Both the position numbers and the translations under genes were made by a program. 32,000 nt of DNA, taken from Halomicrobium mukohataei DSM 12286. Lineage in GTDB: Archaea > Halobacteriota > Halobacteria > Halobacteriales > Haloarculaceae. Location: assembly GCF_000023965.1 (NCBI RefSeq), contig NC_013202.1, forward strand, positions 2,100,001-2,132,000. Reading direction: 5' to 3'. Positions 11,907 to 32,000 of the stretch are shown in pieces. Positions within the stretch are counted from its first letter, which is position 1. The number at the start of each line of letters is the position of its first letter. The notes beneath the pieces are model-generated. The model was not told the DNA's origin. It was given only the letters and a program-made list of their open reading frames with translations, and searched no databases.

Positions 11907-11956
11907 GTTCGAGGCGGCGGTCGGCAGCCACCTAAACCGTTCGACGTGTCCGGGCG

Positions 11957-12574
11957 CTACAGCAACGCGTCGGCCGCCGCGAAGGCCCGAAAGCCGTAGC
12001 CAAAGAGGACGGCCGCGGGAGCGACGCTGACGACGAGGGCACGCGGGAGCGAGAGGTTGTGGATCGTCCCCATTCCGTAGACGTACAGCCCGGCAGCCCA
12101 GATGCCACAGGCGATCCGCACCTCCGGGAGCGGTAGCCCGGCGAAGACACACGGAGCTGTCGCGTAGGCGATCACCTGCACGGTCTCGCTGATGCCGCCC
12201 CGATCCGGTGCCAGCGGTGCCAACAGGAGCGTCTGGGCGGCCGCCGTGAGGTGAAGCACCGCGGGCGCGACGAAGACGACGATGGCGACCAGCGCCAGCA
12301 GCGCCGTCAGTGGTTCCAGGTCACCGATCACCGGGTAGTCGTACGGCCCGAGCGACAGCTGTCCGCGCTGAGCGAGTTCGACGACCGCGAACCGCGACCC
12401 CTCCTCGACGAGGACGACGACGGCGATGAAGACGAGTCCCGGTGCCTGATCGCCGGGTGCGATCCCCGCCTGGAAGAACCGTTGCGGTCGCAGAAGTATC
12501 TCGGCCCACGCGCGAACGAGCGCGATCGGGCCGCGGTCGCGCCCGCCCGTCGGGTTCTCGACCCACTGTGTCAC
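11957..12574 (-). CDS. Yip1-family-like integral membrane protein
   Basis: 205 aa with a GTG start. A soluble N-terminus (WVENPTGGRDRGPIALVRAWAEILLRPQRFFQ) is followed by about 5 hydrophobic helices. The family name is recalled from similar haloarchaeal annotations and was not verified. Confidence 0.65.
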   Translation of the reverse strand: MTQWVENPTGGRDRGPIALVRAWAEILLRPQRFFQAGIAPGDQAPGLVFIAVVVLVEEGSRFAVVELAQRGQLSLGPYDYPVIGDLEPLTALLALVAIVVFVAPAVLHLTAAAQTLLLAPLAPDRGGISETVQVIAYATAPCVFAGLPLPEVRIACGIWAAGLYVYGMGTIHNLSLPRALVVSVAPAAVLFGYGFRAFAAADALL

Positions 12575-12622
12575 GGGTCGTCGTAGGTCCAGCGAGCGTT
12601 AGTCAGTTTCCTTTCCCGACGG

Positions 12623-12802
12623 TCACAGTCGCTCCCACGCTGCCCGGAGTGCTTCCCGCGGACTCTCTCGGAAGCGCCCCAGCGCGGGGAGGAAGTCGTG
12701 CTTGAGACCGTGGAGCGCGACGCCCGCCAGCCCGATGCCCAGCGTGGCACCAGCGAACAGAAAGGACAGCAGTACCACGGGACCGTCGACCGCTGCGGGC
12801 AC
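12623..12802 (-). CDS. candidate small single-TM protein (59 aa, GTG start); not in the ORF track
   Basis: Own translation gives VPAAVDGPVVLLSFLFAGATLGIGLAGVALHGLKHDFLPALGRFRESPREALRAAWERL*. Third positions are GC-rich and there is one clear TM helix. It is the only plausible frame in the 12575-12911 gap. There is no ATG start and no recognisable homology. Confidence 0.3.
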   Translation of the reverse strand: MPAAVDGPVVLLSFLFAGATLGIGLAGVALHGLKHDFLPALGRFRESPREALRAAWERL

Positions 12803-12911
12803 GGTCTCCAGTGAGATCGGTGCTCTCGGTGTTCTGACACACAGCTGTCAGTCCATGGACCGACTCGCCGCCCGGGGCGGCGAACGCCGAGACGACGAAC
12901 TGCCGGCGATG

Positions 12912-12995
12912 TCATACGGAACGTTGTAGTTGCTTATCGGTGAGCGTCGCACGGGGTAGACGCTCACCGGGACATTCCGACAACCGTCCGTATCA
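12912..12995. repeat. 84-nt long-hairpin element, copy B (same termini as 2174-2259)
   Basis: The outer arms are TCATACGGAACGTTGT (12912-12927) and ACAACCGTCCGTATCA (12980-12995). The inner stem is CGGTGAGCGTC 12938-12948 / GACGCTCACCG 12959-12969. The element overlaps the TGA stop at 12993-12995. Confidence 0.7.
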
Positions 12996-13571
12996 GTCGT
13001 CCGCCCCGACGTTCTCGCAGCTCTCGATACTCTGGGGATCGGGCTCGATGTTCGCGTACTGGACGGCCTCGCGCCCGAGCGTCTCGACGCGGTCGCGCAT
13101 CGCCTCGTCGACGAGCTGGCCGTCCTCGAAGGCGCTCGACGCGCGTGGGAGCGCCGCCTGGTGTGGAATCACCCAGCAGTCCAGCGACCGTCCGACCGAC
13201 CGGAGATGCTCCAGCGCCGTCACGGGGAAGCCCCCACCGGCGACACACAGGAGGCCGACGGTCTTGTTCTCGAACTCGTCGAAGCCACAGTAGTCCAGCG
13301 CGTTCTTCATCGGCGTCGAGAACGAGCCGTGGTAGACCGGCGTTCCCAGCAGGATCGAGTCGGCTTCTCGGATCCGCTCGCGGAACGCCGCTGCGTCGCC
13401 AGCGTCCTCGGCGTCGGGGTCGAACACGGGGAGGTCCCACTCGCGGAGGTCGAGCAGGTCGGTGTCGCCACCGGCCGCCTGTGCGGCCGTCAGTGCGATC
13501 TGGAGGCTCTGTCGCGTGTAACTGCCCTCGCGGAGACTGCCACAGATGCCGACGACGTTCGTTCGCGTCAT
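12993..13571 (-). CDS. NAD(P)H-dependent FMN reductase family oxidoreductase
   Basis: 192 aa (MTRTNVVGICGSLREGSYTRQSL...LLGTPVYHGSFSTPMKNALDY), the flavodoxin-like FMN reductase signature. Confidence 0.88.
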   Translation of the reverse strand: MTRTNVVGICGSLREGSYTRQSLQIALTAAQAAGGDTDLLDLREWDLPVFDPDAEDAGDAAAFRERIREADSILLGTPVYHGSFSTPMKNALDYCGFDEFENKTVGLLCVAGGGFPVTALEHLRSVGRSLDCWVIPHQAALPRASSAFEDGQLVDEAMRDRVETLGREAVQYANIEPDPQSIESCENVGADD

Positions 13572-13650
13572 GGCGAGCCAAACGACTGGGGTTTATTTAT
13601 GAGTACCCCTCGTCCGATCGCCCGGTGCAGAACGGCAGTTAGCGACTGCT

Positions 13651-13932
13651 CTAGATGAGGTCCCCGGGGTCGTGAACGTCCGCCATCCGCTGGGCTTCTG
13701 TGGCGTATCGCTCGCGCAGGTCCGCGTCGTCGACGGCCCCGAGGTTCCCCGGCTCGGCGTCGACGGCTGCAGTCGTGTCTCGGATGTCCCCGAACGAGGT
13801 GAGCGCCCGCTCCTTGCGGAAGTACCGCTCGCCGTCGGGCGTCGCGTACGTGAGGATGATGAGGTTCTGCTCGTCGTCGGAGTAGGTCCGTTCGACCAGC
13901 CAGACGCGGACGGTCTCTGCTTGGACAGTCAT
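13651..13932 (-). CDS. small acidic hypothetical protein (93 aa)
   Basis: The ATG at 13930-13932 gives MTVQAETVRVWLVERTYSDDEQNLIILTYATPDGERYFRKERALTSFGDIRD..., with halophilic composition and good codon bias. Confidence 0.65.
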   Translation of the reverse strand: MTVQAETVRVWLVERTYSDDEQNLIILTYATPDGERYFRKERALTSFGDIRDTTAAVDAEPGNLGAVDDADLRERYATEAQRMADVHDPGDLI

Positions 13933-13977
13933 ACGTGAACATCGGTCACGGACGTGCAAGTACCACCGGGTGCGTTC

Positions 13978-14895
13978 TCACTCGCTGAGACCGACCACCA
14001 GCGACTCGTCGCCGTCCTCGACGCTGACGAGGCCGTCGTCCGCGAGGTCCTCGACGAGGCCGCGGAGCCACTCTCGGCCGTGTTCGCCCTCGGGCGCGTA
14101 GTCGACTCGCACGCGCGGGCCGAGGTCGTCCAAGGCGAGGCGGTCGTACTCGCCGAGGACGTTGACGATCCGCCCGCGGAACTGCCGACGGCTCCCCTCG
14201 AAATCGGGCTGGGTGGGCACGTCCGGCGCAGTGAAGTCGCCGGTGTCGTAGGCGTGACACCACTCGCGCCACGGGCAGCCGGCGGCGTCGCAGGCCGGCG
14301 TCTTCTCGCAGGCGACCCCGCCGAGCTCCATGATCGCGTTGTTCCATATCCGTGACCGTCCGTCGGGCATGAGCGCCCCCGCGACTTCCTCGAACGCCGC
14401 GTCGTCGTCGGGCACGTCGAACGCGCGGTGGAGGACGCGCTTGACGTTCGTGTCGACGACGGCGTCGCCCGCGTTGAACGCGAACGAGGCGACCGCGTTG
14501 GCGGTGTAGGGGCCGACGCCGTGGAGCTCCTGCAGTTCGGCGGGCGTCTCGGGGAACGCGCCGTCCCACTCGTCGATGATCTGGTTCGCGGCGGTGTGGA
14601 GGTACTTCGCCCGGTTGTTGTACCCCAGCGAGTGGGCCGTCCAGAACGCGACCACGTCGGACTGGTCGGTGGCCGCCAGCGCCTCGGCGTCGGGCCACCG
14701 ATCGAGGAACGCCCGCCAGGCCTCGACGACGCGGCCCAGCTGGGTCTGCTGGCTCATCACCTCGGAGACGAGGATCTCGTAGGCGTCGTCGGTCTCGCGC
14801 CAGGGAAACGACCGGTGGTCGGCCTCGTACCACTCGATCAGGGCCCGCTGGACGGCCTCGCGGTTCTCGGGGACTGCGCCCGGCAGCTCCGTCAT
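13978..14895 (-). CDS. mutY: A/G-specific adenine DNA glycosylase (MutY-like, HhH-GPD with Fe-S cluster loop)
   Basis: The ATG at 14893-14895 gives MTELPGAVPENREAVQRALIEWYEADHRSFPWRETDDAYEILVSEVMSQQTQ.... It has a helix-hairpin-helix (LQELHGVGPYTANAV), the catalytic VDTNVKRVL, and a Cys cluster (CEKTPACDAAGCPWREWC). Total 305 aa. Confidence 0.85.
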   Translation of the reverse strand: MTELPGAVPENREAVQRALIEWYEADHRSFPWRETDDAYEILVSEVMSQQTQLGRVVEAWRAFLDRWPDAEALAATDQSDVVAFWTAHSLGYNNRAKYLHTAANQIIDEWDGAFPETPAELQELHGVGPYTANAVASFAFNAGDAVVDTNVKRVLHRAFDVPDDDAAFEEVAGALMPDGRSRIWNNAIMELGGVACEKTPACDAAGCPWREWCHAYDTGDFTAPDVPTQPDFEGSRRQFRGRIVNVLGEYDRLALDDLGPRVRVDYAPEGEHGREWLRGLVEDLADDGLVSVEDGDESLVVGLSE

Positions 14896-15350: not shown

Positions 15351-16139
15351 TCACTCGACGAGCGGCGCTGCACCGGCCCACAGTTGCTGGAAGTGCCGTT
15401 CGAACTCCTCGACGATCTCCGAGTCTTTGATGCCGAGGACGCCGATTCGATCGTCGGCGGCGACCGGGTGCGGGATGTCGATGGTCGTCCCGATCCCGTC
15501 GACGACGTCGAAGGACAGTCCCACGTCGGGCAGCGTCCTGACGGCCACGTCGCCAGGCTGGTCGGCGATCAGCCGGTCGAACGTCTCGGGCAGCGTCAGC
15601 GCCACCTTCTCGCTGACGAGGAGCTGCACCGTCAGATCCGCGCTCGCGCCCTCGAAGAAGGCATCACACTCCGTCTGGAGCGTCTCCCACGTCGCGTTCT
15701 CGTAGGGCGTCCCGACGATGCCGTGGACGAACTCCTCGGCGGTGCGCATGTGTTCTTGCAGCGCCGAACGCATCTCCTCGCTGCCCAGCGAGCCCAGCCA
15801 GAAGCTGCTCTCGGTCGGTGGCGTCGGGAGCACGTTCGTGCGGACCGCCGCCGCTCGCTCCCGGTAGTGGTGCCACTCCTGTCTCAGCTCGTAGGCCCGT
15901 TCGGCCAGCAGCCTGTCGACGACGGCCTCCGGCTCGACGGCGACGTACTGCTTCGGATCACTCGACTGGAGTCGGACCACTCTCCGGGCTTCGAGGCCGT
16001 TGAGCACGTCGTAGATGCGACCTTTCGGCACGCTGCTGGCCTCGGAGAGCTCGGTCGCCGTCGCCGCACCCGTCAGTAACAGCGTCCGATACACCTTCTC
16101 CTCGTAGCTCGACAGGCCGAGCGCACCCAGCTCCGTCAT
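15351..16139 (-). CDS. TrmB-family transcriptional regulator
   Basis: 262 aa. The N-terminal wHTH (LGLSSYEEKVYRTLLLTGAATATELSEASSVPKGRIYDVLNGLEARRVV) is characteristic of TrmB. Confidence 0.88.
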   Translation of the reverse strand: MTELGALGLSSYEEKVYRTLLLTGAATATELSEASSVPKGRIYDVLNGLEARRVVRLQSSDPKQYVAVEPEAVVDRLLAERAYELRQEWHHYRERAAAVRTNVLPTPPTESSFWLGSLGSEEMRSALQEHMRTAEEFVHGIVGTPYENATWETLQTECDAFFEGASADLTVQLLVSEKVALTLPETFDRLIADQPGDVAVRTLPDVGLSFDVVDGIGTTIDIPHPVAADDRIGVLGIKDSEIVEEFERHFQQLWAGAAPLVE

Positions 16140-16339
16140 GCACCCTCGTTGCGAGCCGGTCCGTAAATATGTACCCCGTGTGGTGGTTCTCGGGTGGCCG
16201 TGTCACGGCCGGCCGTCGCCGCTCGGGACCGACGACGGTCCGTCGTGGATGCCGTCGCATCGCCCGCGGGATGGCTGATTACGGCGGCGCTGGTGGTGGA
16301 CCATCTGGGCTGTCGGTATACGAATTGATTGCAGTCGAA

Positions 16340-16837
16340 TCAGCGTACATCACCGACTGAGAATCGCACCAGATCAAGGAGACTCCGAGCAAGGAGGAGA
16401 AATCCGAGAACGCTGCCAGCAACGAGCGCAACCAGCGGGGCAAGCATCACACCGCTCGCATCAGCGATAGTGATGACGTACACGCTCCCGATCACCCACC
16501 AGAGCGTGTAGCCGGCGAGTCCGCCGAGGACGAGTGATGCTCCAATCCGCGGAAGGCTCGTATCGTCAGGTTGGGTCCGGTTATCGGAGCCGACATATGA
16601 CGACGCAAGTCGCACGCCGTGTCGTCCCACACGAGCGAGTACTGACACTGCGAGAAGTCCCGGAACGAGGAGTGTCGCTGGGATAAATATGGGGTTGGCA
16701 ATCACCGCGACGATTCCGTCGTCGAACATGAACCCGGGCTCAGCCACCCAAACGGCAGCGAGTATCACCGTCAGTACGGCGAGCATCGGCTCGACAGTTC
16801 TCCTGCGAACCGACGACGAGAACGGGGCCCACATCAT
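16340..16837 (-). CDS. hypothetical polytopic membrane protein (165 aa, about 4 TM) in the low-GC islet
   Basis: It has an ATG-ATG start at 16832-16837 and hydrophobic helices (MLAVLTVILAAVWV, IFIPATLLVPGLLAVSVLA, LVLGGLAGYTLWWVIGSVYVI, LAPLVALVAGSVLGFLLLA). GC is lower than in the flanks. Confidence 0.6.
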   Translation of the reverse strand: MMWAPFSSSVRRRTVEPMLAVLTVILAAVWVAEPGFMFDDGIVAVIANPIFIPATLLVPGLLAVSVLARVGRHGVRLASSYVGSDNRTQPDDTSLPRIGASLVLGGLAGYTLWWVIGSVYVITIADASGVMLAPLVALVAGSVLGFLLLARSLLDLVRFSVGDVR

Positions 16838-17001
16838 TCGTTCACCCCACAGATGTCTTTGAAACGATCAAAAAGCCGTGATCGGTGGGTATTCTCCACA
16901 GCGTCCAGAATCTCTGTCCTTCGAGTTTGCCGGTTCTGTGATTGATTGCTTGTCGTTTCCATAGCGTGTCGTTCCCACGGCTCTACGATAGACGTGGCTA
17001 C

Positions 17002-17023
17002 TACTCAAACGCTCATTTGAGTA
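17002..17023. promoter_or_regulatory. perfect 8-bp inverted repeat TACTCAAA-N6-TTTGAGTA, candidate operator
   Basis: It lies 39-60 nt upstream of the ATG at 17062, inside the 224-bp divergent intergenic region between 16837 (-) and 17062 (+). Confidence 0.45.
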
Positions 17024-17061
17024 CCCATGGGTTTCTTGCCAGATTACCTACAACGCCCGGT

Positions 17062-18174
17062 ATGGATCTCGCCGGTCGGATCGTCCGTCGGTTTCGGGGT
17101 GACCCCGACGAGCCGGTGATCGCTGGTATCGAAGACGAAGATGCTGATCAACTGTTCGATGCGCTTAGCTCCGAGATGTCGCGGGCGGTGTTAGCAGCGT
17201 GCTACGATGACGGACGGACTCGATCGGAGCTGGCGGATGATCTAGAAACGAGCATCCAAAACATCAGCTATCACGTCGACAAGCTCGAATCTGCTGGGTT
17301 ACTTGAACCAGTCGAAACACGGTATGGAGCGAACGGCAGCGAGGTTCTCGTCTACGAACCATCGAAACAGGCAGTTGTTATCGCGGCGGGAGAGACTACT
17401 TTCGTCGATCGGCTCTCTGAGGCGATCGATACGTTGTTCGCACCGGTCGCCCTTGCTGGGCTTCTAGCAATAGTTGTGGGCGTACTTGTCCGCGGTCCTG
17501 CACCAGTTGGAATGATGGGTGGTGGACCAATGAATGAGACCACAGGAACACAAGTAGGGCTCGTAGCTGCCAGTGTCACGTTCGTTTCTTGCCTACTCAT
17601 CATATCTTTGATGGAGAAAAAAGGTGCGTTCAATAGTGGCAAAACAGACGGTTCCCGCCGAGAGGGTTTGATGAGTGTTTTGTTCGGACGGAGCGTCACC
17701 AGAACCCGACAAGATGCTATGCTGATCACAGCTCTCGTGTTCGTGACGTTTCTGGCGCTCGACTTGGTTGCTACCGGTGCTGGACACCAATTGACCGTGG
17801 CAGCATCGATCACGATTCAACTGGCAATTCCCGGGGGGATCGTGCTAGCTACCGTGCTAGCATACTCTAACGACGGCTTATTGATGAGTTGGGGGGCTTC
17901 AAGTGCACCTATCGTTGGTATCTGGGCCTATCTCGTCGCTGGCGTTCTCACAAGCGGTGGTTTTGCACCTATCTTGATCGCACTCGGGCCGGTTGTAGTT
18001 ACGCTGGTTGCTGCACCAGTAGGATCGATCGCTTATCTCGGCGGTCGAATAACTGCCAAACATTTCCGAGGCCGGAACATTGAATCCCTTTCGAGACGGG
18101 CCATTGGGCTCTTCGTAGCACATCTGATCACGGCTGGTGCGATTGTAGCCGGTTGGGCTCTCGTACTTAGGTAG
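17062..18174 (+). CDS. winged-HTH (ArsR-like) DNA-binding domain fused to a multi-pass membrane domain
   Basis: The ATG at 17062 gives MDLAGRIVRRFRGDPDEPVIAGIEDEDADQLFDALSSEMSRAVLAACYDDGRTRSELADDLETSIQNISYHVDKLESAGLLEPV.... About 6-7 hydrophobic helices follow. Total 370 aa. GC is markedly lower (about 50% by eye around 17500-17700). Confidence 0.75.
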   Translation: MDLAGRIVRRFRGDPDEPVIAGIEDEDADQLFDALSSEMSRAVLAACYDDGRTRSELADDLETSIQNISYHVDKLESAGLLEPVETRYGANGSEVLVYEPSKQAVVIAAGETTFVDRLSEAIDTLFAPVALAGLLAIVVGVLVRGPAPVGMMGGGPMNETTGTQVGLVAASVTFVSCLLIISLMEKKGAFNSGKTDGSRREGLMSVLFGRSVTRTRQDAMLITALVFVTFLALDLVATGAGHQLTVAASITIQLAIPGGIVLATVLAYSNDGLLMSWGASSAPIVGIWAYLVAGVLTSGGFAPILIALGPVVVTLVAAPVGSIAYLGGRITAKHFRGRNIESLSRRAIGLFVAHLITAGAIVAGWALVLR

Positions 18175-22834: not shown

Positions 22835-24016
22835 ATGGTCGAGTTCGAGTTCGATGTCGACTGGCCACGAACTGCGTGGGTCGCCCTGGGGTTCGTGCTC
22901 GCCGCCGCCCTCGTCTTCGTCGCCTATCGCTTCGTCGGGACCTTCGTCTTCGGACTGTTCGTCTACTACGCGACCCGGCGGCTCTACCGCCGGGTCCGGC
23001 GACGGATCGAACAGCCGTCGGTCGCCGCGGGCGTCTCGCTGGTCGGGATGGTGCTTCCGGCGCTCCTGTTGCTGGCCTACACGCTCGGGATCGCCCTCCA
23101 GCAACTGAGTCGCTTCGCCGACGAGATCGACGGTGCCGGGTCCGGGAGCCAGATCGAGGACCTGCTGGCGATGGCCGATCCGTACCTGAACCTGACGGTG
23201 TTGAGCGATCCGACGGCGCTGCTGGACAACCTCGGCGGCGTCGGGACGATCACGACGACGCTCGAATCGGCGCTTGGCTACCTCGGAGTCGTCGGCACGG
23301 GACTCTTACACCTGTTCGTGATGCTCGCGCTCGCGTTCTACCTGCTCCGGGACGACCGCCGGTTCGCGGGCTGGGCCGGCCACCTGACGGCAGAGCGCAC
23401 CGTCTTCGAGGAGTTCGTCGCTGCCGTCGACGAGAGCTTCGACAAGGTGTTCTACGGGAACATCCTGAACGCGATGATCACGGGGCTGGTCGGTGGCATC
23501 GTGTACACGCTGCTCAACCAGATCGCGCCCGCGTCGGTCGCCATTCCGTACGCGGCACTGGTCGGCGTGCTCGCCGGTGGGGCGAGCCTGATCCCCATCG
23601 TCGGCATGAAACTGGTCTACGTTCCGATGGCGGCCTATCTCGCCGTCCTGGCGGGGACCAGCGGCGAAGGGTGGTGGTTCGTCGTCGCCTTCGCCGCGGT
23701 CAGTTTCGTCGTCGTCGACGTGATTCCGGACCTCCTCGTGCGGCCCTACGTCTCGGGCGGGGAACTCCACACCGGTGCGCTGATGTTCGCCTACATCCTC
23801 GGGCCGCTCATCTGGGGATGGTACGGCATCTTCCTCGGTCCGATCGTGCTGGTGTTGGTCACGCACTTCGCACGGATCGTCCTGCCGGAGCTGGTGACCG
23901 ACGAACCGATTCGCGCCAGAGAAGTCGATCCGGCCGCGTTGACCGGCGACACCGACGGCGCGGACGCCGTCGGCGGCGAGAGAGACGGCGACGAGGGCAC
24001 ACCAAGCGGGGCCTGA
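22835..24016 (+). CDS. AI-2E family transporter (PerM/UPF0118)
   Basis: 393 aa and polytopic, with GNILNAMITGLVGGIVYTLL, GGASLIPIVG and YILGPLIWGWYGIFLGPIVLV, which are typical of the AI-2E family. Confidence 0.88.
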   Translation: MVEFEFDVDWPRTAWVALGFVLAAALVFVAYRFVGTFVFGLFVYYATRRLYRRVRRRIEQPSVAAGVSLVGMVLPALLLLAYTLGIALQQLSRFADEIDGAGSGSQIEDLLAMADPYLNLTVLSDPTALLDNLGGVGTITTTLESALGYLGVVGTGLLHLFVMLALAFYLLRDDRRFAGWAGHLTAERTVFEEFVAAVDESFDKVFYGNILNAMITGLVGGIVYTLLNQIAPASVAIPYAALVGVLAGGASLIPIVGMKLVYVPMAAYLAVLAGTSGEGWWFVVAFAAVSFVVVDVIPDLLVRPYVSGGELHTGALMFAYILGPLIWGWYGIFLGPIVLVLVTHFARIVLPELVTDEPIRAREVDPAALTGDTDGADAVGGERDGDEGTPSGA

Positions 24017-24098
24017 CACTGTCGAGACTCGTCGGTGACACACTCCTCGTCCGAGATAGTCTGCCGGGTGCTACAGTGACAGACAGCAGTCAGCGTCG

Positions 24099-24377
24099 CT
24101 ACGTTACGTCCACGTACTCGTCTTCCCAGTCTCGGCGTGCCTCGATCTCTCGTCGGCCGCGCCGCGTGAGACTGTAGTAGTTCGTCCTGCGGTCGCGCTG
24201 GCCTTTCTCCACCAATCCCTTGTCGACGAGCGTATCGAGATTCGGATACAGCCTCCCGTGGTGAATCTCCTTCTCGTAGTAATCTTCGAGCTCCTCCTTG
24301 ATCGCCAGTCCGTGTGGCTCCTCTTTCCCGGCGATGACGTACAGGAGGTCTCGCTGGAATCCTGTCAGGTCGTACAT
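24099..24377 (-). CDS. PadR-family transcriptional regulator
   Basis: 92 aa (MYDLTGFQRDLLYVIAGKEEPHGLAIKEELEDYYEKEIHHGRLYPNLDTLVDKGLVEKGQRDRRTNYYSLTRRGRREI), the PadR wHTH signature. An AT-rich TATA-like region lies just upstream (24378-24425). Confidence 0.88.
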   Translation of the reverse strand: MYDLTGFQRDLLYVIAGKEEPHGLAIKEELEDYYEKEIHHGRLYPNLDTLVDKGLVEKGQRDRRTNYYSLTRRGRREIEARRDWEDEYVDVT

Positions 24378-24548
24378 CGGTAAAGTCTATCACGTATTTA
24401 TTGTCGGAATCTAATAAGTATATCGGATCCGACTCGACGCTTCCGCTTCGCTTCGAAATCACGCGCTCGTGGCGACCTCTCGCCAGATCCGCCGGTGTCA
24501 GCTGAGTGCGAAGGAATAGTTGTTGCACTGACGGTATCGCGATCTGTC

Positions 24549-24567
24549 GACGTATCTCAGATACGTC
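24549..24567. promoter_or_regulatory. perfect 19-bp palindrome GACGTATCT-C-AGATACGTC
   Basis: Read directly from the sequence. It lies in the 460-bp gene-free region about 170-190 bp upstream of the PadR start. Confidence 0.4.
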
Positions 24568-24673
24568 ATACCTCGGTGCTGAACGGCGGCGTTCGCGGTG
24601 CAGTCGCTCGACCGGCTCGCGTCTGTTCCCGAGCGACGGCGTCGCGACTACCGAGTTTCGAAACGAAAGTGGA

Positions 24674-24757
24674 AAGCGAATCAGGCGGAAGGCCCGATTC
24701 GCTTGCCGCCCTGAATTGGTCCCCGCTGACGCTTCGGCCCTCCAAAGCGAAGCGTCA
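24674..24757. other. two adjacent stem-loops (9-bp and 10-bp stems) in the gene-free region
   Basis: The first is AAGCGAATC 24674-24682 / GATTCGCTT 24696-24704 with a 13-nt loop. The second is TGACGCTTCG 24727-24736 / CGAAGCGTCA 24748-24757 with an 11-nt loop. Both loops contain GGCCC. Confidence 0.5.
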
Positions 24758-24835
24758 CTTGGTCGTGGGTCGTTGAGTAACTTAAAGCTGTCGCCAGCAG
24801 CCAGATCAGGTCGCTGCAGTGACCACTATCGCGAG

Positions 24836-24982
24836 CTACATGTGCTCTTCTTCGAGGACCCACCCCAGTGCGCGCCGATAGTGTGTCAGCATCATCCGCA
24901 CGCGATCGTGGTTCATCTCCTCGCTGTCCAGCTGTTCACAGAGGAACTCGTACTGCTCTCTGATCTCTGCTTGCTCGCGCAT
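24836..24982 (-). CDS. candidate micro-protein (48 aa)
   Basis: The ATG at 24980-24982 gives MREQAEIREQYEFLCEQLDSEEMNHDRVRMMLTHYRRALGWVLEEEHM. The longer 77-aa version would overlap the divergent zinc-ribbon gene start. No homology was recognised. Confidence 0.4.
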   Translation of the reverse strand: MREQAEIREQYEFLCEQLDSEEMNHDRVRMMLTHYRRALGWVLEEEHM

Positions 24983-25040
24983 ACCGATCGTTCGACCCGG
25001 CGACGGAAGGAACTTGAGGCTGCCACGCCGACAGTGAGCC

Positions 25041-27212: not shown

Positions 27213-27818
27213 TCACGGGCAGTCGCCGTCGTCGAACTCTGCCGGCTCTGGCCCCTGCTGAACGGCCCTCGTTGCCCCACTCTCGGTGTCGACGACCATC
27301 GCCTGGCCGCCGTAGCCGTGTGTCTGGTCGTGGCCCCGGACGACGACGCAGGTCGTTCCCTCGGGCACTTCGATCGTCTCCGAGCGCGTGAACGGTGCCG
27401 TCGAGTGGGCGTGCAGGAGTTCTCTGCGCCCGAGGCGATCTCCCGCCAGCGTCTCGACCTGCCACCAGTCCGCGTACCCGTCCTCTCCGTCGTCGTCGTG
27501 ATACAGCGTCACACTGAACTCGACCGCTCGCCCGCCTGCCGACTGGAGCGTCACGTCGACGACGTTGGCCTCCCGCAGGTCCAACTCCGATGTCTCGGTC
27601 TCGTCTGCCCGCGTCGCGCTCTCGCCGCCCTCCGCCACTGTCGCCTGTCGAGTGGTCTCGCCGCCGCCGTCCGTCTGGGTGTCGCCGGATCTGCCAGTCG
27701 GTTCGGGCCCTCCGTCCGAGGTCTGAGTTGTGGACGGTGCTGTCTCGCGGCAGCCTGCGATCGCGCTCATTGCCACTCCGAGACCGAGCAAGACTGCTCT
27801 CCGGGGACGAGGGCACAT
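27213..27818 (-). CDS. secreted Tat-type lipoprotein, function unknown
   Basis: The ATG at 27816-27818 gives MCPRPRRAVLLGLGVAMSAIAGC, with a twin-Arg motif and a lipobox Cys. A Thr/Gly/Glu-rich linker and a globular domain follow (VTLYHDDDGEDGYADWWQVE...VVVRGHDQTHGYGG). Confidence 0.7.
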   Translation of the reverse strand: MCPRPRRAVLLGLGVAMSAIAGCRETAPSTTQTSDGGPEPTGRSGDTQTDGGGETTRQATVAEGGESATRADETETSELDLREANVVDVTLQSAGGRAVEFSVTLYHDDDGEDGYADWWQVETLAGDRLGRRELLHAHSTAPFTRSETIEVPEGTTCVVVRGHDQTHGYGGQAMVVDTESGATRAVQQGPEPAEFDDGDCP

Positions 27819-27928
27819 GGGCGACAGCACTCGCGGCGTCGACAAAAGGGTTCACCAGCGAGTCGTCGCTGTTCGCCGTCAGCGCCCGCTTTCCTCACGG
27901 GTCACTGACGTTCCCCGTTCGTTGTAAC

Positions 27929-28058: not shown

Positions 28059-29333
28059 CTACTCGTAAACGAGCCCTTCGCTGTCCTCGCCGTAGAGATC
28101 GAACTCGTCGGTGAGTTCGTCGACGCGCGCACTGACCTCGGCGATCACGTCCTCGTCGTCGGGTGCGTCGACGACCTCGTAGATGAGGTCTGCCACTTCC
28201 TCGCAGGCTTCCTCGTCGAAGCCTCGCGTCGTGAGGCCGGGCGTGCCGGCGCGGATGCCCGAGGGGTTGAACGCCGATCGGGTCTCGCCGGGCACCGTGT
28301 TGGCGTTGAGGACGATGCCTGCCTCTTCGAGGGCCTCCTCGACCTCTTTGCCGGTCGTGTCCGGGTGGGACGGTCGGAGGTCGATCAGGACGAGGTGGTT
28401 GTCCGTGCCGTCGGAGACCAGATCGAGGCCGTGCTCCTGCAGGCGGTCGCCCAGTGCCTTCGCGTTGTCGACGGTCGCCTGTGCGTACTCCTCGAACTCC
28501 GGTTCGAGCGCTTCGCCGAAGCCGACGGCCTTGCCGGCGACGTTGTGCATCAGTGGACCGCCCTGCATGCCGGGGAACACCGCCGAATCGATGTCGTCGG
28601 CGTACTCCTCGTCGCACATGATGATGCCGCCGCGGCCGGCGCGGATCGTCTTGTGCGTCGATCCGGTGACGAAGTCGGCGACGCCGACCGGCGAGGGGTG
28701 GACCCCGGCGGCGACCAGCCCGGTGATGTGTGCGATGTCCGCGAGGTGGTAGGCGTCGGCGGCGTCGGCGGCCTCCTGGATGCGCTCCCACTCGACGGTT
28801 CGGGGGTACGCGGAGTAGCCCGAGACGACGATGTCGGGGTCGTACTCCTCGGCCTGTGCCCGGAGTTCGTCGTAGTCCAGGCGGCCCGTCTCGGCGTCGA
28901 CCTCGTACTGCTCGACCTCGTAGACCTGGCCGGCGAAGTTCGCGGGGTGGCCGTGCGAGAGGTGCCCGCCGTGGGTCAGGTCCAGCGAGAGGATCTTGTC
29001 GCCGGGGTCGAGCACCGCGAGGTAGACGCCCATGTTGGCCTGGGAACCGGAGTGTGGCTGGACGTTGACGTGGTCGGCACCGTACAGCTCCTTGGCCCGT
29101 TCGATCGCGAGTTCCTCGATCTCGTCGGCGGGCTCACAGCCGCCGTAGTAGCGCTCGCCGGGGTATCCCTCGGCGTACTTGTTCGTCAGCGCCGAGCCCT
29201 GTGCTTCGAGGACGGCCTCGCTGACGTGGTTCTCCGAGGCGATCATGGCGAGCGTGTCGTTCTGTCGGTCGACCTCGTCCGTCAGCGCGGCGGTGACGTC
29301 GGGATCGGCCGACTCCAGATGGTCGAAGTGCAT
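28059..29333 (-). CDS. glyA: serine hydroxymethyltransferase
   Basis: The ATG at 29331-29333 gives MHFDHLESADPDVTAALTDEVDRQNDTLAMIASENHVSEAVLEAQGSALTNKYAEGYPGERYYGGC...TGSTHKTIRAGRGG... (PLP lysine motif). Total 424 aa. Confidence 0.95.
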   Translation of the reverse strand: MHFDHLESADPDVTAALTDEVDRQNDTLAMIASENHVSEAVLEAQGSALTNKYAEGYPGERYYGGCEPADEIEELAIERAKELYGADHVNVQPHSGSQANMGVYLAVLDPGDKILSLDLTHGGHLSHGHPANFAGQVYEVEQYEVDAETGRLDYDELRAQAEEYDPDIVVSGYSAYPRTVEWERIQEAADAADAYHLADIAHITGLVAAGVHPSPVGVADFVTGSTHKTIRAGRGGIIMCDEEYADDIDSAVFPGMQGGPLMHNVAGKAVGFGEALEPEFEEYAQATVDNAKALGDRLQEHGLDLVSDGTDNHLVLIDLRPSHPDTTGKEVEEALEEAGIVLNANTVPGETRSAFNPSGIRAGTPGLTTRGFDEEACEEVADLIYEVVDAPDDEDVIAEVSARVDELTDEFDLYGEDSEGLVYE

Positions 29334-29473
29334 ACTCGAACCGTACGGTCCGGCCGTCAATAATCTACCTTTCCGGCGCGCACCTGTGGGCCGTTCACAC
29401 ACTGGTAGAGCATGTGACACTCTGGCACGCGACCAGCAACCATTATGTAGGCGAGGCACACATACCATGCTGT

Positions 29474-31534
29474 ATGTCTACCTGGGGGGTGACATACGCC
29501 GGAGACCGGTCGGCCGAGTCGGACGCTTCGGGGGGATTCGAAGGGGCCGATCCGACCGGACTTCCAGCGTTGTGTGCCCAGCTGAATCGACTGAGCGAGG
29601 CGTCGTCGTCTGCGATTCCGAGAGATATCGACGAGTGTTTCGAGGGCGAGGCCGATCGGCTCTCGATCCCGTGTTCCGACGTGATGGTGACGGCACTCGA
29701 CCTCGACGCCCAGTACCGCGTGACGACTCCGACGGAACTCCCCGACGGGGAGTACCTCCTCAGGTGCCGCACTCGATCGGGGGCGTCGGCCCACGGGCCG
29801 ACGAGCTACCTCCGGTTTCCGGGACCGGCGTCGGTCAAGCCGGCCGGCGATGAGTTCGTCGTCTCGTTCTGGGAGCCGACGACGGTGACCGTCGGCGGCT
29901 CGTCTGGCAACCGGGCCGGACCGGGCCGGATCACGATCGAACCGACGCCGTCCGGACTCGCCACCGGACTGACTCACCTGGCGGCCGCCCACCACACGAC
30001 CGCTCCCGTCAGGTCCCACCCGAGCTTCAGGGCACACCCGCCCTTGCTGGAGTTGGGATCGGAGACGAGTGTTCCGTCGGCCGTCGCCGCCGAGACGCCG
30101 GACACCGGGATCGAGTTCCTGGTCCCGCCGGAACTGGATCGGCTCTTCGTCGCCGCGCCGCTCGCGTACTACCTCGGCGCGACCGTCGAGGTAACCGACT
30201 GCGACGCGCCCGTGTTACGGGCCGACGACCCCTCGATTCGGTACGAGTTCGACGATCTCCCCGGCTTCCAGCATCAGTGCGCGCAGCTCCTGCGGCGGGC
30301 CTTCTTCCTCGACTGTCAGGCTCGCCGGGTCGCGCCCGACCGGGCGTCAAGCGACGGGCTCGAACAGCTCCCGATCGATCTGGACTCGCTGTGTCAGCTC
30401 GGCCCCGCGGCCCGTCTCGAACAGTGTCTCTCGCTGTCCGAGCGGAATCTGGACGCGCTGTTGCCCGACTGGCACCTCTCGACGTACGCCAAACCGACGC
30501 CGGGCCGGATCACGTGTCTCCCCTTCCTGCTGGACAGACTCAGCCTCGTTTACCTCCCGCGCGCGACCGAGCTCGACCGGGACGAACTGCTCGAACAGAC
30601 GCTGTCGGACGCCTACACTGCACGCGGCGAGACCGCCACGTCGGGCGTACTCAAACCGGAGCTACAGGCCGGACAGCTCCACGCGTGGCTCGCGCCGGGG
30701 ACGCCGATCCACGCGTTCAAGCCCCTCCCGAAAGCGTACCACAACCGCGGCAAGTACCGGCATCGAAGCAACGACCAGCTCCAGGTCGGCGTCGTCCTCA
30801 ACGACGACGCGATGTGCGAGGAACACCAGATCGTCTCCGACATCTACGAGGAGCGTGCCGCCGATCTCCCGATCGACGTGACGATCCAGTCGCGGCTCGA
30901 CCGCACCGAACTGGCGGCCACGTTCGAGGCGAAAAACGACTTCGTCCACTACATCGGGCACTGCGAGGACGGCGGGCTGCGGTGTACGGACGGCACGCTC
31001 GACGTGGCCGAGATCGAGGAGTCGAACACGCAGACGTTCTTCCTCAACGCCTGTGGCTCCTACGACCAGGGGCTCTCGCTGGTCGAGCGGGGCTCGATCG
31101 CGGGCGGTGTCACCTTCGAGAAAGTGCTCGACCAGCAGGCCGCGAAGGTCGGGACCGCGTTCGCGCGGCTGCTCGTCCACGGCTTCAGCATCGAGCGGGC
31201 GCTCCAGCTCGCCCGTCGACGGATCATGATGGGGAAAGACTACGCCGTCGTCGGCGACGGCACGTACGCGCTCTTGCCGAGTCCCAAACAGCCCGCGGTC
31301 GTCAAGATTGCCGACGCGGGAGAGCGCTACACCGTCAGCTGCGAGATGTTGACGGCCCAGTCTAACGGGGACCGGTACGACCTCCCTTTCGACGGCAGAG
31401 AGATTCTCAACGGCGACACGCTGGAGAAGACCGTGACCGGGGCGGAACTGCGCGAGGTCCTCGACGCCAAGTCTCTGCCCGTGATCTACGACGGCGACTT
31501 CCACTGGTCGGAGGAACTGGTCGACGAACTCTGA
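29474..31534 (+). CDS. large hypothetical protein with a C-terminal CHAT/caspase-like (His-Cys) domain
   Basis: It is 686 aa from the ATG at 29474, or 706 aa from the GTG at 29414. The C-terminal region contains FVHYIGHCEDG (His codon 30959-30961) and TFFLNACGSY (Cys codon 31052-31054), then GSIAGGVTFEKVLDQQAAKVGTAFARLLVHGFSIERALQLARR. The CDS itself is well supported by acidic composition and codon bias. The domain call is by eye. Confidence 0.8.
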   Translation: MSTWGVTYAGDRSAESDASGGFEGADPTGLPALCAQLNRLSEASSSAIPRDIDECFEGEADRLSIPCSDVMVTALDLDAQYRVTTPTELPDGEYLLRCRTRSGASAHGPTSYLRFPGPASVKPAGDEFVVSFWEPTTVTVGGSSGNRAGPGRITIEPTPSGLATGLTHLAAAHHTTAPVRSHPSFRAHPPLLELGSETSVPSAVAAETPDTGIEFLVPPELDRLFVAAPLAYYLGATVEVTDCDAPVLRADDPSIRYEFDDLPGFQHQCAQLLRRAFFLDCQARRVAPDRASSDGLEQLPIDLDSLCQLGPAARLEQCLSLSERNLDALLPDWHLSTYAKPTPGRITCLPFLLDRLSLVYLPRATELDRDELLEQTLSDAYTARGETATSGVLKPELQAGQLHAWLAPGTPIHAFKPLPKAYHNRGKYRHRSNDQLQVGVVLNDDAMCEEHQIVSDIYEERAADLPIDVTIQSRLDRTELAATFEAKNDFVHYIGHCEDGGLRCTDGTLDVAEIEESNTQTFFLNACGSYDQGLSLVERGSIAGGVTFEKVLDQQAAKVGTAFARLLVHGFSIERALQLARRRIMMGKDYAVVGDGTYALLPSPKQPAVVKIADAGERYTVSCEMLTAQSNGDRYDLPFDGREILNGDTLEKTVTGAELREVLDAKSLPVIYDGDFHWSEELVDEL

Positions 31535-31728
31535 TCGCTCACGGGGACTCTCCGCGGGGCGATCGTCGCTTCCCCGTCGACGTGGCCGGGCTGTCTGTCA
31601 TTGTCCCCCAAACGGTACCGGCAACAATTATGTCTTGACGGCGTGGCAGTATTATCTCTGCAGACGAATTCAATCGAAGTCGGCCAGTAAAATTAAATAT
31701 GACAAAATCGTAGTAGTCTAACAGAAGC

Positions 31729-32000
31729 ATGCGTTCGAACCTACTCGAAGACGACGTAAGAACTGTTCTGTCCGAAGCACTGGACAGTGAAGACAGTTCG
31801 CTCACAGTTGTTAATCCCTCTAGAGAAACGCTTTCGGAACTCGTCTCGGTGCTGGACGAACACGAGGATCCGCCCGCCGTCCGCCTCCTCGCGGAGAACC
31901 GAGCCCTGAAAGACGAGATGGGCGACTTCATCGTCGCGAGCACGGCCGCGGACCTGGTCGAGGCCGACGTGCTGGAGCTGAAGATCCTCGAAGACGTTCC
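31729..32000 (+). CDS. hypothetical acidic protein, N-terminal part only (runs off the right edge)
   Basis: Own translation from the ATG at 31729 gives MRSNLLEDDVRTVLSEALDSEDSSLTVVNPSRETLSELVSVLDEHEDPPAVRLLAENRALKDEMGDFIVASTAADLVEADVLELKILEDV.... It is preceded by a ~190-bp AT-rich promoter-like spacer (31535-31728). Confidence 0.6.
   Translation, partial: MRSNLLEDDVRTVLSEALDSEDSSLTVVNPSRETLSELVSVLDEHEDPPAVRLLAENRALKDEMGDFIVASTAADLVEADVLELKILEDV

What the first reader, a model, noticed from the sequence alone, without database searches (positions are those of the whole stretch)
29474..31534. Orphan 686-aa protein ending in a CHAT/caspase-like His-Cys protease module, in a housekeeping neighbourhood
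The first ~450 residues match no family I recognise. Residues ~455-625 (numbering of the 706-aa ORF) follow the clan-CD caspase/CHAT pattern:
- a hydrophobic strand ending in His (FVHYIGH, codon 30959-30961);
- about 30 residues later a hydrophobic strand ending in Cys (TFFLNAC, codon 31052-31054);
- then the Gly-rich turn and amphipathic helices usual after the CHAT catalytic Cys (GSIAGGVTFEKVLDQQAAKVGTAFARLLVHGFSIERALQLARR).

An ~80-aa beta-rich tail follows. No TPR repeats and no cas, CBASS or other defence genes are visible nearby. The gene sits divergent from glyA. From memory, caspase-like proteolytic activity has been reported biochemically in haloarchaea without a firm gene assignment. 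If that is right, a CHAT-like protein fused to a large unknown N-terminal region could be a candidate for it, or a new regulated-protease system.
Basis: partly seen in the sequence, partly recalled or inferred. Interest (0 to 1): 0.7.

Follow-up and report, generated by a model that had tools for sequence, protein, structure and literature searches.

The report
Haloarchaeal CHAT-type protease, new N-terminal module
This gene encodes a probably active caspase-fold (CHAT-type) cysteine protease fused to a module of unknown fold; it is not an orphan but belongs to a large, uncharacterised family found across salt-loving archaea, whose substrate and role are still unknown.

Summary
The CHAT/caspase reading holds. 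The Pfam CHAT hit is sub-threshold for this protein, but 9 of 31 orthologs hit CHAT (best E=1.2e-6). An AlphaFold model matches SAVED-CHAT, gingipain R, procaspase-3 and separase (best E=1.5e-6). His496 and Cys527 are invariant in orthologs, and two divergent paralogs have lost both together.

"Orphan" is wrong. The 686-aa architecture occurs in at least 281 haloarchaeal species genomes and in 642 clusters (50% identity) of the N-terminal module. Some members are already labelled "CHAT domain-containing" or "caspase family protein".

The N-terminal ~330 aa give a confident model with no Pfam, PDB or viral-structure match.

Gene order glyA(−) | this gene | tbsP(+) is kept in about 80 of 83 loci. 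Paralogs sit in a DUF7504 → CHAT-like → DUF7503 triad. A DUF7503-like micro-ORF ending in Gly-Pro abuts 38 of 82 orthologs, but not this Halomicrobium copy.

No Haloferax member appeared among the 360 proteins listed in three searches, so a link to the H. volcanii caspase-like activity is not supported.

Verdict: a real, new variant of a known protease kind, of moderate interest.

The parts
29474..31534 (+). CDS of the 686-aa CHAT-like protein (stop codon included)
   Evidence: ORF list. The start is supported by homolog N-termini and by the conserved ATG in relatives. About 98% identical to Halomicrobium katesii.
29561..30553 (+). N-terminal family-specific module (residues ~30-360): a beta-sandwich (~54-155) followed by an alpha/beta-plus-helical subdomain
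   Evidence: AlphaFold models (domain-only model with pLDDT 84). No Pfam family. No significant PDB or BFVD fold match. The profile finds 642 clusters at 50% identity; nearly all of the 150 listed (apart from shorter fragments) are 640-850 aa with the module at the N-terminus.
29999..30043 (+). Most conserved N-terminal motif, T(S/T)PERS(F/Y)PTLRGHPP in the family (TAPVRSHPSFRAHPP here, residues 176-190)
   Evidence: R180, R186, P189 and P190 are invariant across all paralog clades. Function unknown.
30563..30721 (+). Low-confidence, probably disordered linker (residues ~364-416), variable in length among homologs
   Evidence: pLDDT below 50. Large insertions in some orthologs (alignment columns 423-462).
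30761..31228 (+). CHAT/caspase-hemoglobinase-fold protease domain (residues ~430-585)
   Evidence: Pfam CHAT at E=0.024 over residues 446-590. 9 of 31 orthologs hit CHAT, best 1.2e-6. Foldseek matches: SAVED-CHAT 8tl0 at 1.5e-6, RgpB, procaspase-3 and separase.
30959..30961 (+). Codon of the putative catalytic His496 (FVHYIGH-C), directly after predicted strand 490-495
   Evidence: Invariant in 31 orthologs. Kept in all clades except two paralogs that lost both dyad residues. Secondary structure.
31052..31054 (+). Codon of the putative catalytic Cys527 (FFLNAC-GS), directly after predicted strand 521-525
   Evidence: Invariant in 31 orthologs. Lost only together with His496 in P0200 and P0217.
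31289..31531 (+). C-terminal beta-rich domain (residues ~606-686) with conserved P669 and W678 (PVIYDGDFxWS)
   Evidence: Model secondary structure, moderate pLDDT. Conservation. No fold assignment was obtained.
29334..29473 (.). Divergent glyA / CHAT-like intergenic region with two conserved AT-rich islands (29356-29376 GTCAATAATCTACCTTTCCGG; 29436-29449 AGCAACCATTATGT), each 23-43 nt upstream of its own ATG
   Evidence: DNA alignment with relatives down to 57% protein identity. Reading them as TATA/BRE elements of leaderless transcripts is inference.
28059..29333 (-). glyA (serine hydroxymethyltransferase), the divergent neighbour
   Evidence: ORF. SHMT Pfam in L001. Present upstream in 79 of 83 loci.
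31729..32000 (+). 5' part of tbsP (TrmB-suppressor transcription regulator), the conserved downstream neighbour; runs off the window
   Evidence: TbsP_N at E=3.3e-30. Downstream in 80 of 83 loci. Function in H. volcanii described in PMC11023807.
31682..31723 (+). Conserved non-coding block upstream of tbsP (GGCCAGTAAAATTAAATATGAC...CGTAGTAGTCTAACA)
   Evidence: Almost fully conserved (three mismatches in 42 positions) between the window and relatives down to 77% protein identity. Its antisense translation ('FNFTGR') recurs in many loci.
31539..31601 (-). 20-codon ORF (MTDSPATSTGKRRSPRGESP*) in the position where other lineages carry the DUF7503-like micro-ORF; probably NOT a gene
   Evidence: A 2-nt deletion disrupts it in the 98%-identical H. 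katesii copy, and L005 shows no similarity there. No match to the micro-ORF profile.

Best explanation
The gene encodes a soluble, cytoplasmic, ~75-kDa clan-CD cysteine endopeptidase of the CHAT type. Residues ~430-585 form a caspase-hemoglobinase fold. His496 (end of strand 490-495) and Cys527 (end of strand 521-525) are the catalytic dyad.

The protease domain is preceded by a ~330-residue family-specific module (a beta-sandwich plus an alpha/beta-helical subdomain) and a ~50-residue flexible linker. An ~80-residue beta domain follows it. By analogy with other CHAT proteases, whose non-catalytic N-terminal domains sense a signal or dock the substrate, I infer that the N-terminal module gates or targets the protease, and that the enzyme performs limited, site-specific cleavage of one or a few cellular proteins rather than bulk degradation.

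This copy is the chromosomal, syntenic (glyA | X | tbsP) ortholog of a pan-Halobacteria family. Other members are encoded with a co-directional KaiC-like DUF7504 protein and a convergent ~45-aa DUF7503 micro-protein ending in Gly-Pro. Those small partners are the likeliest substrates or regulators in those lineages. The Halomicrobium/Haloarcula lineage lacks them, so the substrate here is unknown. The constantly adjacent transcription regulator TbsP is one speculative candidate.

Shown: the fold, dyad conservation, family distribution, synteny and partner genes. Inferred: catalytic activity, regulation by the N-terminal module, and limited proteolysis. Speculative: the identity of the substrate.
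For: Fold: the AlphaFold model matches SAVED-CHAT 8tl0 (E=1.5e-6, prob 1.0), gingipain RgpB, procaspase-3 and separase.

Profile: Pfam CHAT is the only clan-CD model hit. It scores E=0.024 for this protein, and at E<=0.01 it is hit by 9 of 31 orthologs (best 1.2e-6) and by 4 of the 22 clade-spanning members of A5. Precomputed PF12770 hits are on record for six orthologs.

Dyad: H496 and C527 are invariant in 31 orthologs down to 43% identity. Across paralog clades at 27-31% identity they are kept, except in two proteins that lost both at once. Each sits right after a predicted beta-strand, in the order His then Cys, as in clan CD (clan-CD topology from general knowledge).

Localisation: no TM segment, and pI 4.7.

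Not a mobile or defence gene: PADLOC gives no hit. The gene is chromosomal, and the glyA/tbsP arrangement is kept in 79-80 of 83 loci across several families.

Family partners: the DUF7504-X-DUF7503 triad is seen in L084, L086 and L087; L085 has X-DUF7503 only. A convergent GP-ending micro-ORF abuts 38 of 82 orthologs, against a 1% background.
Against: - The Pfam CHAT score for this protein (14.5 bits) is below the gathering cut-off (24).
- Sequence searches against the PDB find no relative.
- I could not inspect model coordinates, so the His-Cys distance and the residue-level superposition on known dyads were not checked.
- The residue after the His is Cys, not the usual Gly.
- No biochemical, transcript or proteomic evidence was available.
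- The N-terminal module has no known counterpart, so a sensor or docking role is pure analogy.
- Synteny with tbsP may only reflect a conserved core region. The two genes have separate promoters, and in other lineages a micro-ORF lies between them.
Confidence: 0.62

Rival explanations
1. It is the enzyme responsible for the high basal caspase-like (IETDase/VADase) activity reported in haloarchaea.
For: It has a genuine caspase-fold His-Cys module and is widespread in Halobacteria. The H. volcanii papers state that archaea lacked known caspase homologues (PMC3615174).
Against: The activity was measured in Haloferax volcanii. No Haloferax protein is among the 360 listed family members or the 27 plasmid hits, while sister genera (Halogeometricum, Halobellus, Halopelagius, Haloplanus) are present. 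CHAT proteases and metacaspases generally do not share caspase Asp-specificity (general knowledge; the same point is made for metacaspases in PMC3615174). The same group later linked the activity to proteostasis (title cited in PMC9415839; from memory, proteasome, thermosome and Cdc48 components).
Confidence: 0.05
2. It is an anti-virus or abortive-infection effector, like the CRISPR- or CBASS-linked CHAT proteases, triggered by infection to cleave host proteins.
For: The best structural match is SAVED-CHAT of a type III CRISPR cascade. The family has many paralogs per genome, including ~30%-identical copies on megaplasmids (27 records; 12 of them Halorussus) and tandem modules (L084). That pattern is common for conflict systems.
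Against: This ortholog is a syntenic core chromosomal gene between glyA and tbsP in about 80 of 83 loci across families. PADLOC gives no hit. No cas, CBASS, nuclease or NTPase neighbours are present. The N-terminal module is not SAVED, CARF or TPR by fold or profile.
Confidence: 0.1
3. It is a non-catalytic scaffold (a pseudo-protease) that only uses the caspase fold for binding.
For: Two family members (P0200, P0217) have lost both dyad residues yet keep H492, C504 and the N-terminal motifs, so the fold has a dyad-independent role in at least some lineages. The His is followed by Cys instead of the canonical Gly.
Against: In this protein and all 30 aligned orthologs the dyad is strictly invariant, together with the surrounding NACGS and G-rich motifs. 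That would not be expected without catalytic selection.
Confidence: 0.07
4. It is a dedicated processing or regulatory protease for the adjacent transcription factor TbsP. This would couple proteolysis to the sugar-, morphology- and motility-related regulon, as CHAT/Lon-type proteases release sigma factors in CRISPR-linked systems.
For: tbsP lies directly downstream on the same strand in 80 of 83 loci spanning several families, including this window. TbsP controls gapII, cell shape, adhesion and motility in H. volcanii (PMC11023807). CHAT domains are known to act on, or sit within, transcription-factor control modules (Csx29/Craspase PMC10028731; the DdvA anti-sigma factor PMC11506125).
Against: The genes are separated by 170-870 bp, with a separate, strongly conserved tbsP promoter block. 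TbsP exists and functions in H. volcanii, where no family member was seen. Paralog modules are not next to tbsP. Synteny alone is weak evidence.
Confidence: 0.12

Closest known systems
CHAT-domain proteases (Pfam PF12770), e.g. SAVED-CHAT of type III-B CRISPR (PDB 8tl0) and TPR-CHAT/Csx29 of Craspase
   Same: The caspase-hemoglobinase fold with the His...Cys dyad in the C-terminal half; a non-catalytic module N-terminal to the protease; the best structural match (E=1.5e-6); the only clan-CD Pfam model hit.
   Different: The N-terminal module is not SAVED, CARF or TPR and matches nothing known. There is an extra C-terminal beta domain. No CRISPR/CBASS context. Core chromosomal synteny. The Pfam score is below threshold. 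The motif is His-Cys instead of His-Gly.
Separase (clan CD, family C50)
   Same: A large protein with a C-terminal caspase-like domain (Foldseek 5fc2 at E=1e-3, 9hn5 at 1e-2). His-Cys spacing of ~30 residues, similar to separase (~26, from memory). A housekeeping rather than defence setting.
   Different: No helical ARM/TPR-like N-terminal region. No evidence of a link to SMC/kleisin. The match is limited to the catalytic core.
Caspases / metacaspases / orthocaspases (family C14)
   Same: Fold and dyad order. Procaspase-3 is matched at E=2.4e-4 with TM 0.51 on the target. NCBI labels some paralogs 'caspase family protein'.
   Different: No Peptidase_C14 profile hit for any of the 53 members scanned. 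No p20/p10 signature was detected. Specificity is unknown.
Haloarchaeal DUF7504 - CHAT-like - DUF7503 gene triad (uncharacterised; seen here in paralogs)
   Same: The same full-length architecture, N-terminal module included (27-31% identity). Orthologs of this gene in other genera keep a DUF7503-like convergent micro-ORF (38 of 82 loci).
   Different: This gene has no DUF7504 upstream (glyA is there instead) and no conserved micro-ORF downstream. It carries the clade-specific GHC motif.
HetF of Anabaena (CHAT protease needed for heterocyst differentiation and cell division; PMC8406250)
   Same: A chromosomal, non-defence CHAT protease with a developmental or cell-biological role. This is a precedent for the 'regulatory protease' reading.
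   Different: No detectable similarity outside the CHAT core. HetF is membrane-associated; this protein has no TM segment.

Membership tests
CHAT domain (PF12770, clan CD) | Profile match at or above Pfam's gathering score | tested here: inconclusive
   This protein scores 14.5 bits (E=0.024) against a cut-off of 24. 9 of 31 orthologs match at E<=0.01, best 1.2e-6. Six orthologs carry a precomputed PF12770 hit.
CHAT domain (PF12770, clan CD) | Caspase-hemoglobinase alpha/beta fold | tested here: met
   Foldseek on the AF2 model (domain pLDDT mostly above 80): 8tl0 at 1.5e-6, 4ief/1cvr at 1e-4, 4jqy at 2.4e-4, 5fc2 at 1e-3, all with probability 1.0.
CHAT domain (PF12770, clan CD) | Conserved His then Cys dyad at the C-terminal ends of consecutive core strands | tested here: met
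   H496 follows strand 490-495 and C527 follows strand 521-525. Both are invariant in orthologs and are lost only jointly in two paralogs. The spatial distance was not measured because no coordinates were available.
CHAT domain (PF12770, clan CD) | Cysteine-dependent endopeptidase activity | not testable with these tools
   Needs enzyme assays with H496A and C527A controls.
Caspase/metacaspase (Peptidase_C14, PF00656) | Profile match to C14 | tested here: not met
   No C14 hit for this protein at E<=10, nor for the 31 + 22 family members at E<=0.01.
CRISPR/CBASS-associated CHAT effectors (SAVED-CHAT, TPR-CHAT) | SAVED/CARF or TPR sensor domain, and a cas/CBASS gene neighbourhood | tested here: not met
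   The N-terminal module has no Pfam hit and no fold match. PADLOC gives none. Neighbours are glyA, folD, tbsP and ycaO.
Separase (C50) | Large helical N-terminal region plus a pseudo-protease/substrate-binding domain preceding the active domain | tested here: not met
   The N-terminal model is a beta-sandwich plus an alpha/beta-helical subdomain with no separase match. Only the catalytic core aligns.
Haloarchaeal CHAT-like family with the conserved N-terminal module (unnamed) | Full-length architecture: N-terminal module with the PERSxPxxRGHPP-type motif, then CHAT, then the C-terminal beta domain | tested here: met
   324 to 1964 full-length homologs. The N-terminal profile hits 642 clusters. 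Invariant motif residues are listed.
DUF7504 - CHAT-like - DUF7503 triad | Co-directional DUF7504 gene immediately upstream | tested here: not met
   tblastn with four DUF7504 proteins finds none in the window or next to the gene in any of the 83 orthologous loci; the only in-locus copy, used as a query, lies ~6 kb upstream in L003. glyA occupies the upstream position.
DUF7504 - CHAT-like - DUF7503 triad | Convergent ~45-aa micro-ORF ending in Gly-Pro abutting the stop codon | tested here: not met
   Present in 38 of 82 orthologous loci but absent from the window. The 20-codon ORF at 31539-31601(-) does not match the profile and is frameshifted in H. katesii.

The most novel reading that the evidence does not exclude
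The family is a haloarchaea-wide protease signalling system built on a previously undescribed sensor fold. A CHAT protease is gated by its N-terminal module and by a Gly-Pro-terminated micro-protein (DUF7503), with a KaiC-like partner (DUF7504) in paralogs. The core glyA/tbsP-linked copy found here would control the TbsP regulon (sugar metabolism, cell shape, motility) by proteolysis. That would make it an archaeal, non-defence counterpart of the protease-released transcription factor switches known from CRISPR-linked CHAT/Lon systems.
Probability: 0.1. Interest if true: 0.75.

Novelty: new variant of a known kind. Interest (0 to 1): 0.48.

Why it matters
Caspase-fold proteases were long said to be missing from archaea (as stated in PMC3615174). 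Here one family turns out to be present in most haloarchaeal lineages sampled (no Haloferax member was seen), often in several copies, with an intact catalytic dyad and an N-terminal module that matches no known fold.

No experimental work on it was found. It offers defined targets for study: the dyad, a strongly conserved Arg/Pro-rich motif, a Gly-Pro-terminated micro-protein partner and a KaiC-like partner. Together these make regulated proteolysis in archaea directly testable.

It also corrects the tempting but unsupported assignment of the Haloferax caspase-like activity to this gene.

Tried and rejected
- Sequence searches against PDB chains with the whole protein, the full-length profile and a CHAT-only profile gave nothing significant. 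Only fold comparison detects the relationship.
- NCBIfam and PADLOC gave no hits.
- I tested whether the N-terminal region is a SAVED/CARF/TPR-type sensor. It has no Pfam hit. The best PDB fold hit is a generic beta-sandwich of GH31 glucosidases (E=3.9e-3, TM 0.17). Nothing turned up in viral predicted structures. Rejected.
- I tested whether the 20-codon minus-strand ORF after the stop codon is the window's version of the DUF7503 micro-protein. It does not match the iterated profile and is frameshifted in the 98%-identical H. katesii sequence. Rejected.
- I looked for a DUF7504 gene in the window and in the orthologous loci. There is none.
- Literature searches for 'CHAT domain' with Haloferax, and for HVO_2860, HVO_2862 and HVO_2863, gave no papers. 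The 2019 paper on caspase activity and proteostasis is not held.
- Rfam and tRNA scans of the window gave nothing.
- I could not obtain model coordinates or residue-level structural alignments, so the dyad geometry was not measured.
- The bacterial promoter/terminator scanner was not used, because it does not cover archaeal promoters.
Full report
**1. Observation**

The window has an ORF at 29414..31534(+), 706 aa from GTG. Homolog N-termini (M-x-x-W-G/E) and a DNA alignment with relatives support that ATG as the start. The alignment shows the ATG and the following codons conserved, and an AT-rich island (AGCAACCATTATGT, 29436-29449) 25-38 nt upstream.

The stated motifs and codons are exact: His496 is CAC at 30959-30961 and Cys527 is TGT at 31052-31054.

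The gene is real. GC3 is 0.84 against GC2 0.48. The product is acidic (pI 4.7) with no TM segment, and there are hundreds of full-length homologs.

It is divergent from glyA, whose start is at 29333(-). By protein identity the window is Halomicrobium, about 98% identical to H. katesii DSM 19301.

**2. The protease module**

- Pfam gives only a sub-threshold CHAT hit for this protein (E=0.024, 14.5 bits against a cut-off of 24, residues 446-590). NCBIfam and PADLOC give nothing.
- 9 of 31 aligned orthologs hit CHAT on their own (best 1.2e-6), and six carry a precomputed PF12770 hit.
- No member hits Peptidase_C14.
- An AlphaFold2 model built with a 31-sequence alignment has mean pLDDT 71, with the protease region mostly above 80. 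Searched against the PDB, its top matches are all clan CD: SAVED-CHAT 8tl0 (E=1.5e-6), gingipain RgpB, procaspase-3 (TM 0.51 on the target) and separase.
- His496 directly follows predicted strand 490-495 and Cys527 follows strand 521-525. This is the His-then-Cys order typical of clan CD (topology from general knowledge).
- Both residues are invariant in 31 orthologs down to 43% identity.
- In a 22-sequence alignment spanning paralog clades at 27-31% identity, they are retained everywhere except in two Natrialbales proteins (P0200, P0217). Those two have lost both (H to E/D, C to P/A) while keeping H492, C504 and the N-terminal motifs. Joint retention or loss is what a functional pair predicts.
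- Sequence-only searches of the PDB find nothing.
- I could not access coordinates, so the His-Cys distance is unmeasured.

**3. The rest of the protein**

- Residues ~30-360 fold confidently when modelled alone (pLDDT 84), as a beta-sandwich followed by an alpha/beta-plus-helical subdomain.
- This module has no Pfam family and no significant match in the PDB (best E=3.9e-3, TM 0.17, a generic sandwich) or in viral predicted structures. It is therefore not a SAVED, CARF or TPR sensor.
- Its most conserved feature across all clades is the loop motif T(S/T)PERS(F/Y)PTLRGHPP (residues 176-190).
- A ~50-residue low-confidence linker, variable in length among homologs, joins it to the protease. An ~80-residue beta domain with a conserved PVIYDGDFxWS motif follows.

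**4. Not an orphan**

- A genome scan found relatives in 281 species-level genomes. Of the 80 listed, all are Halobacteria apart from one MAG labelled Methylophaga, which is probably a mis-binned contig.
- An exhaustive profile search with the N-terminal module alone found 642 clusters at 50% identity (503 at E<=1e-30). Apart from shorter fragments, nearly all of the 150 listed are 640-850 aa with the module at the N-terminus.
- Searches seeded from divergent members returned 977 and 1964 proteins. They cover Halolamina, Halarchaeum, Halobacterium, Halorubrum, Halobaculum, Haloprofundus, Halogeometricum, Halobellus, Haloplanus, Halococcus and others. Several are already named 'CHAT domain-containing protein' or 'caspase family protein' by NCBI or UniRef.
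- Several genomes hold two or more paralogs. Halorussus limi, for example, has M0R89_01065 and M0R89_16810.
- 27 megaplasmid records carry ~30%-identical copies.

**5. Genomic context**

Across 83 loci, glyA lies divergently upstream in 79, tbsP lies downstream on the same strand in 80, ycaO follows in 62, and folD is nearby in 60. tbsP has its own promoter block, which is almost fully conserved among close relatives (31682-31723).

The paralogs live in a different, tight module: DUF7504 (~225-247 aa, 8-70 bp upstream, co-directional), then the CHAT-like gene, then DUF7503 (44-48 aa, convergent, abutting the stop). This is seen in Halorussus, Haloprofundus and Halogeometricum. In Halobacterium hubeiense only the DUF7503 partner is called. 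In L084 a second CHAT-like gene with its own DUF7503 lies in tandem, but it is preceded by a 224-aa ORF with no Pfam hit rather than by a DUF7504. DUF7504 shows a weak KaiC-like signal (PF06745, E=2.3e-4, below cut-off).

DUF7503 peptides share YL..(N/H)PR(M/K)(M/I)G(V/A)LF..., a hydrophobic helix and a C-terminal Gly-Pro.

A profile of these peptides, iterated once, detects unannotated micro-ORFs in the same convergent, abutting position after many orthologs of the window's gene. Direct inspection shows a GP-terminated ORF there in 38 of 82 loci, often ending Y-x-G-P. The background is 1.0% of all ORFs in these loci.

The Haloarcula/Halomicrobium/Halorientalis lineage lacks it. The window's 20-codon ORF at that spot does not match the profile and is frameshifted in H. 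katesii. No DUF7504 homolog occurs in the window or next to the gene in any orthologous locus; the only in-locus copy lies ~6 kb upstream in L003.

**6. Mechanism**

The best-supported reading is an active, cytoplasmic CHAT-type cysteine endopeptidase. Its N-terminal module gates or targets it, and it performs limited proteolysis. In most lineages the micro-protein (plus the KaiC-like protein in paralogs) would act as substrate or regulator. In this lineage the substrate is unknown.

TbsP is a transcription regulator of gapII, cell shape, adhesion and motility in H. volcanii (PMC11023807). It is a speculative candidate on the strength of near-universal adjacency and of precedents where CHAT modules control transcription factors (PMC10028731, PMC11506125). 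I give it only about 0.1.

A defence role is unlikely for this core, syntenic copy, though it cannot be excluded for the plasmid paralogs. A purely structural role is unlikely given the invariant dyad.

**7. The caspase-activity idea**

High caspase-like activity was reported in Haloferax volcanii extracts, with no gene assigned (PMC3615174). No Haloferax protein appears among the 360 listed family members or the plasmid hits, while sister genera do. This is not proof of absence, because only the top 120 hits per search are listed, but it argues against the assignment. A later paper links that activity to proteostasis by its title. I could not read it.

**8. Novelty and score**

The domain identity is already reflected in some database names. 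What appears undescribed is:

- the family as a whole, with no papers found;
- its N-terminal fold;
- the class-wide glyA/tbsP synteny;
- the triad with a Gly-Pro micro-protein, and the paired loss of the dyad in pseudo-protease paralogs.

I rate it a new variant of a known kind, with interest 0.48.

Noticed in passing
Orthologous loci, e.g. L002:12118-12291(-), L058:8059-8247(-), L081:8007-8189(-), L079/L080 about 5 nt after the gene stop: Micro-ORFs of about 40-50 codons, not in the gene calls or tblastn screens of the loci examined, lie convergent to and abutting the CHAT-like gene's stop. They are DUF7503-like, with an (N/H)PR motif, a hydrophobic helix and an invariant C-terminal Gly-Pro (often Y-x-G-P). 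They occur in 38 of 82 loci against a 1% background for GP-ending ORFs.
   Followed up: yes
L084:7288-10272 and 11644-14674; L086:7313-10262; L087:5188-8298; L085:8001-10213: Paralogs of the gene sit in a tight triad: DUF7504 (weakly KaiC-like), then the CHAT-like gene, then a DUF7503 micro-protein. Halorussus limi has two CHAT-like + DUF7503 units in tandem; only the first is preceded by a DUF7504. H. hubeiense (L085) shows only the DUF7503 partner.
   Followed up: partly
P0200 (Halobiforma nitratireducens) and P0217 (Natrialba sp. SSL1), alignment A5: Two family members have lost both dyad residues (HYVGEC/HYIGDC and LDAP/LDAA) but keep H492, C504 and the N-terminal motifs. They are apparent pseudo-proteases.
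   Followed up: partly
window 31682-31723 (upstream of tbsP, which starts at 31729): This non-coding block (GGCCAGTAAAATTAAATATGAC...CGTAGTAGTCTAACA) is almost fully conserved among close relatives. Its antisense translation 'FNFTGR/FNFIGR' recurs in many genera. It is probably the tbsP promoter or operator.
   Followed up: partly
window 29356-29376 and 29436-29449: Two conserved AT-rich islands lie in the 140-bp divergent glyA/CHAT-like intergenic region, each 23-43 nt upstream of its own ATG. This is consistent with back-to-back promoters of leaderless transcripts.
   Followed up: partly
window residues 492-507 of the protein (nt 30947-30994): H492, Y493, G495, C504 and G507 are strictly invariant across all clades, including the pseudo-proteases. 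C497 (the GHC motif, replacing the usual His-Gly) is specific to the glyA-linked clade. A structural, metal or redox role was not examined.
   Followed up: no
window 27213-27845(-): A 210-aa ORF with a lipobox-like N-terminus (…LGLGVAMSAIAGC…) and coding-like GC3 lies between folD and glyA. It has no Pfam hit and is not called as a gene in the 97%-identical contig L001.
   Followed up: partly
window about 16001-18000 and 24001-25000: G+C drops locally to 0.54-0.60, against about 0.67 elsewhere. No tRNA or Rfam hits occur anywhere in the window. The content of these stretches was not examined.
   Followed up: no
L068 (CAYYRO010000125.1): A 6-kb MAG contig labelled 'uncultured Methylophaga sp.' carries the haloarchaeal glyA / CHAT-like / tbsP / ycaO arrangement. 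It is probably a binning contaminant.
   Followed up: no
L087:8497-10392(-) and L003:4268-4888(-): HalX-type response regulators sit near family members in two unrelated loci, and a TrmB-family regulator sits next to the paralog module in L087. This may be coincidental.
   Followed up: no
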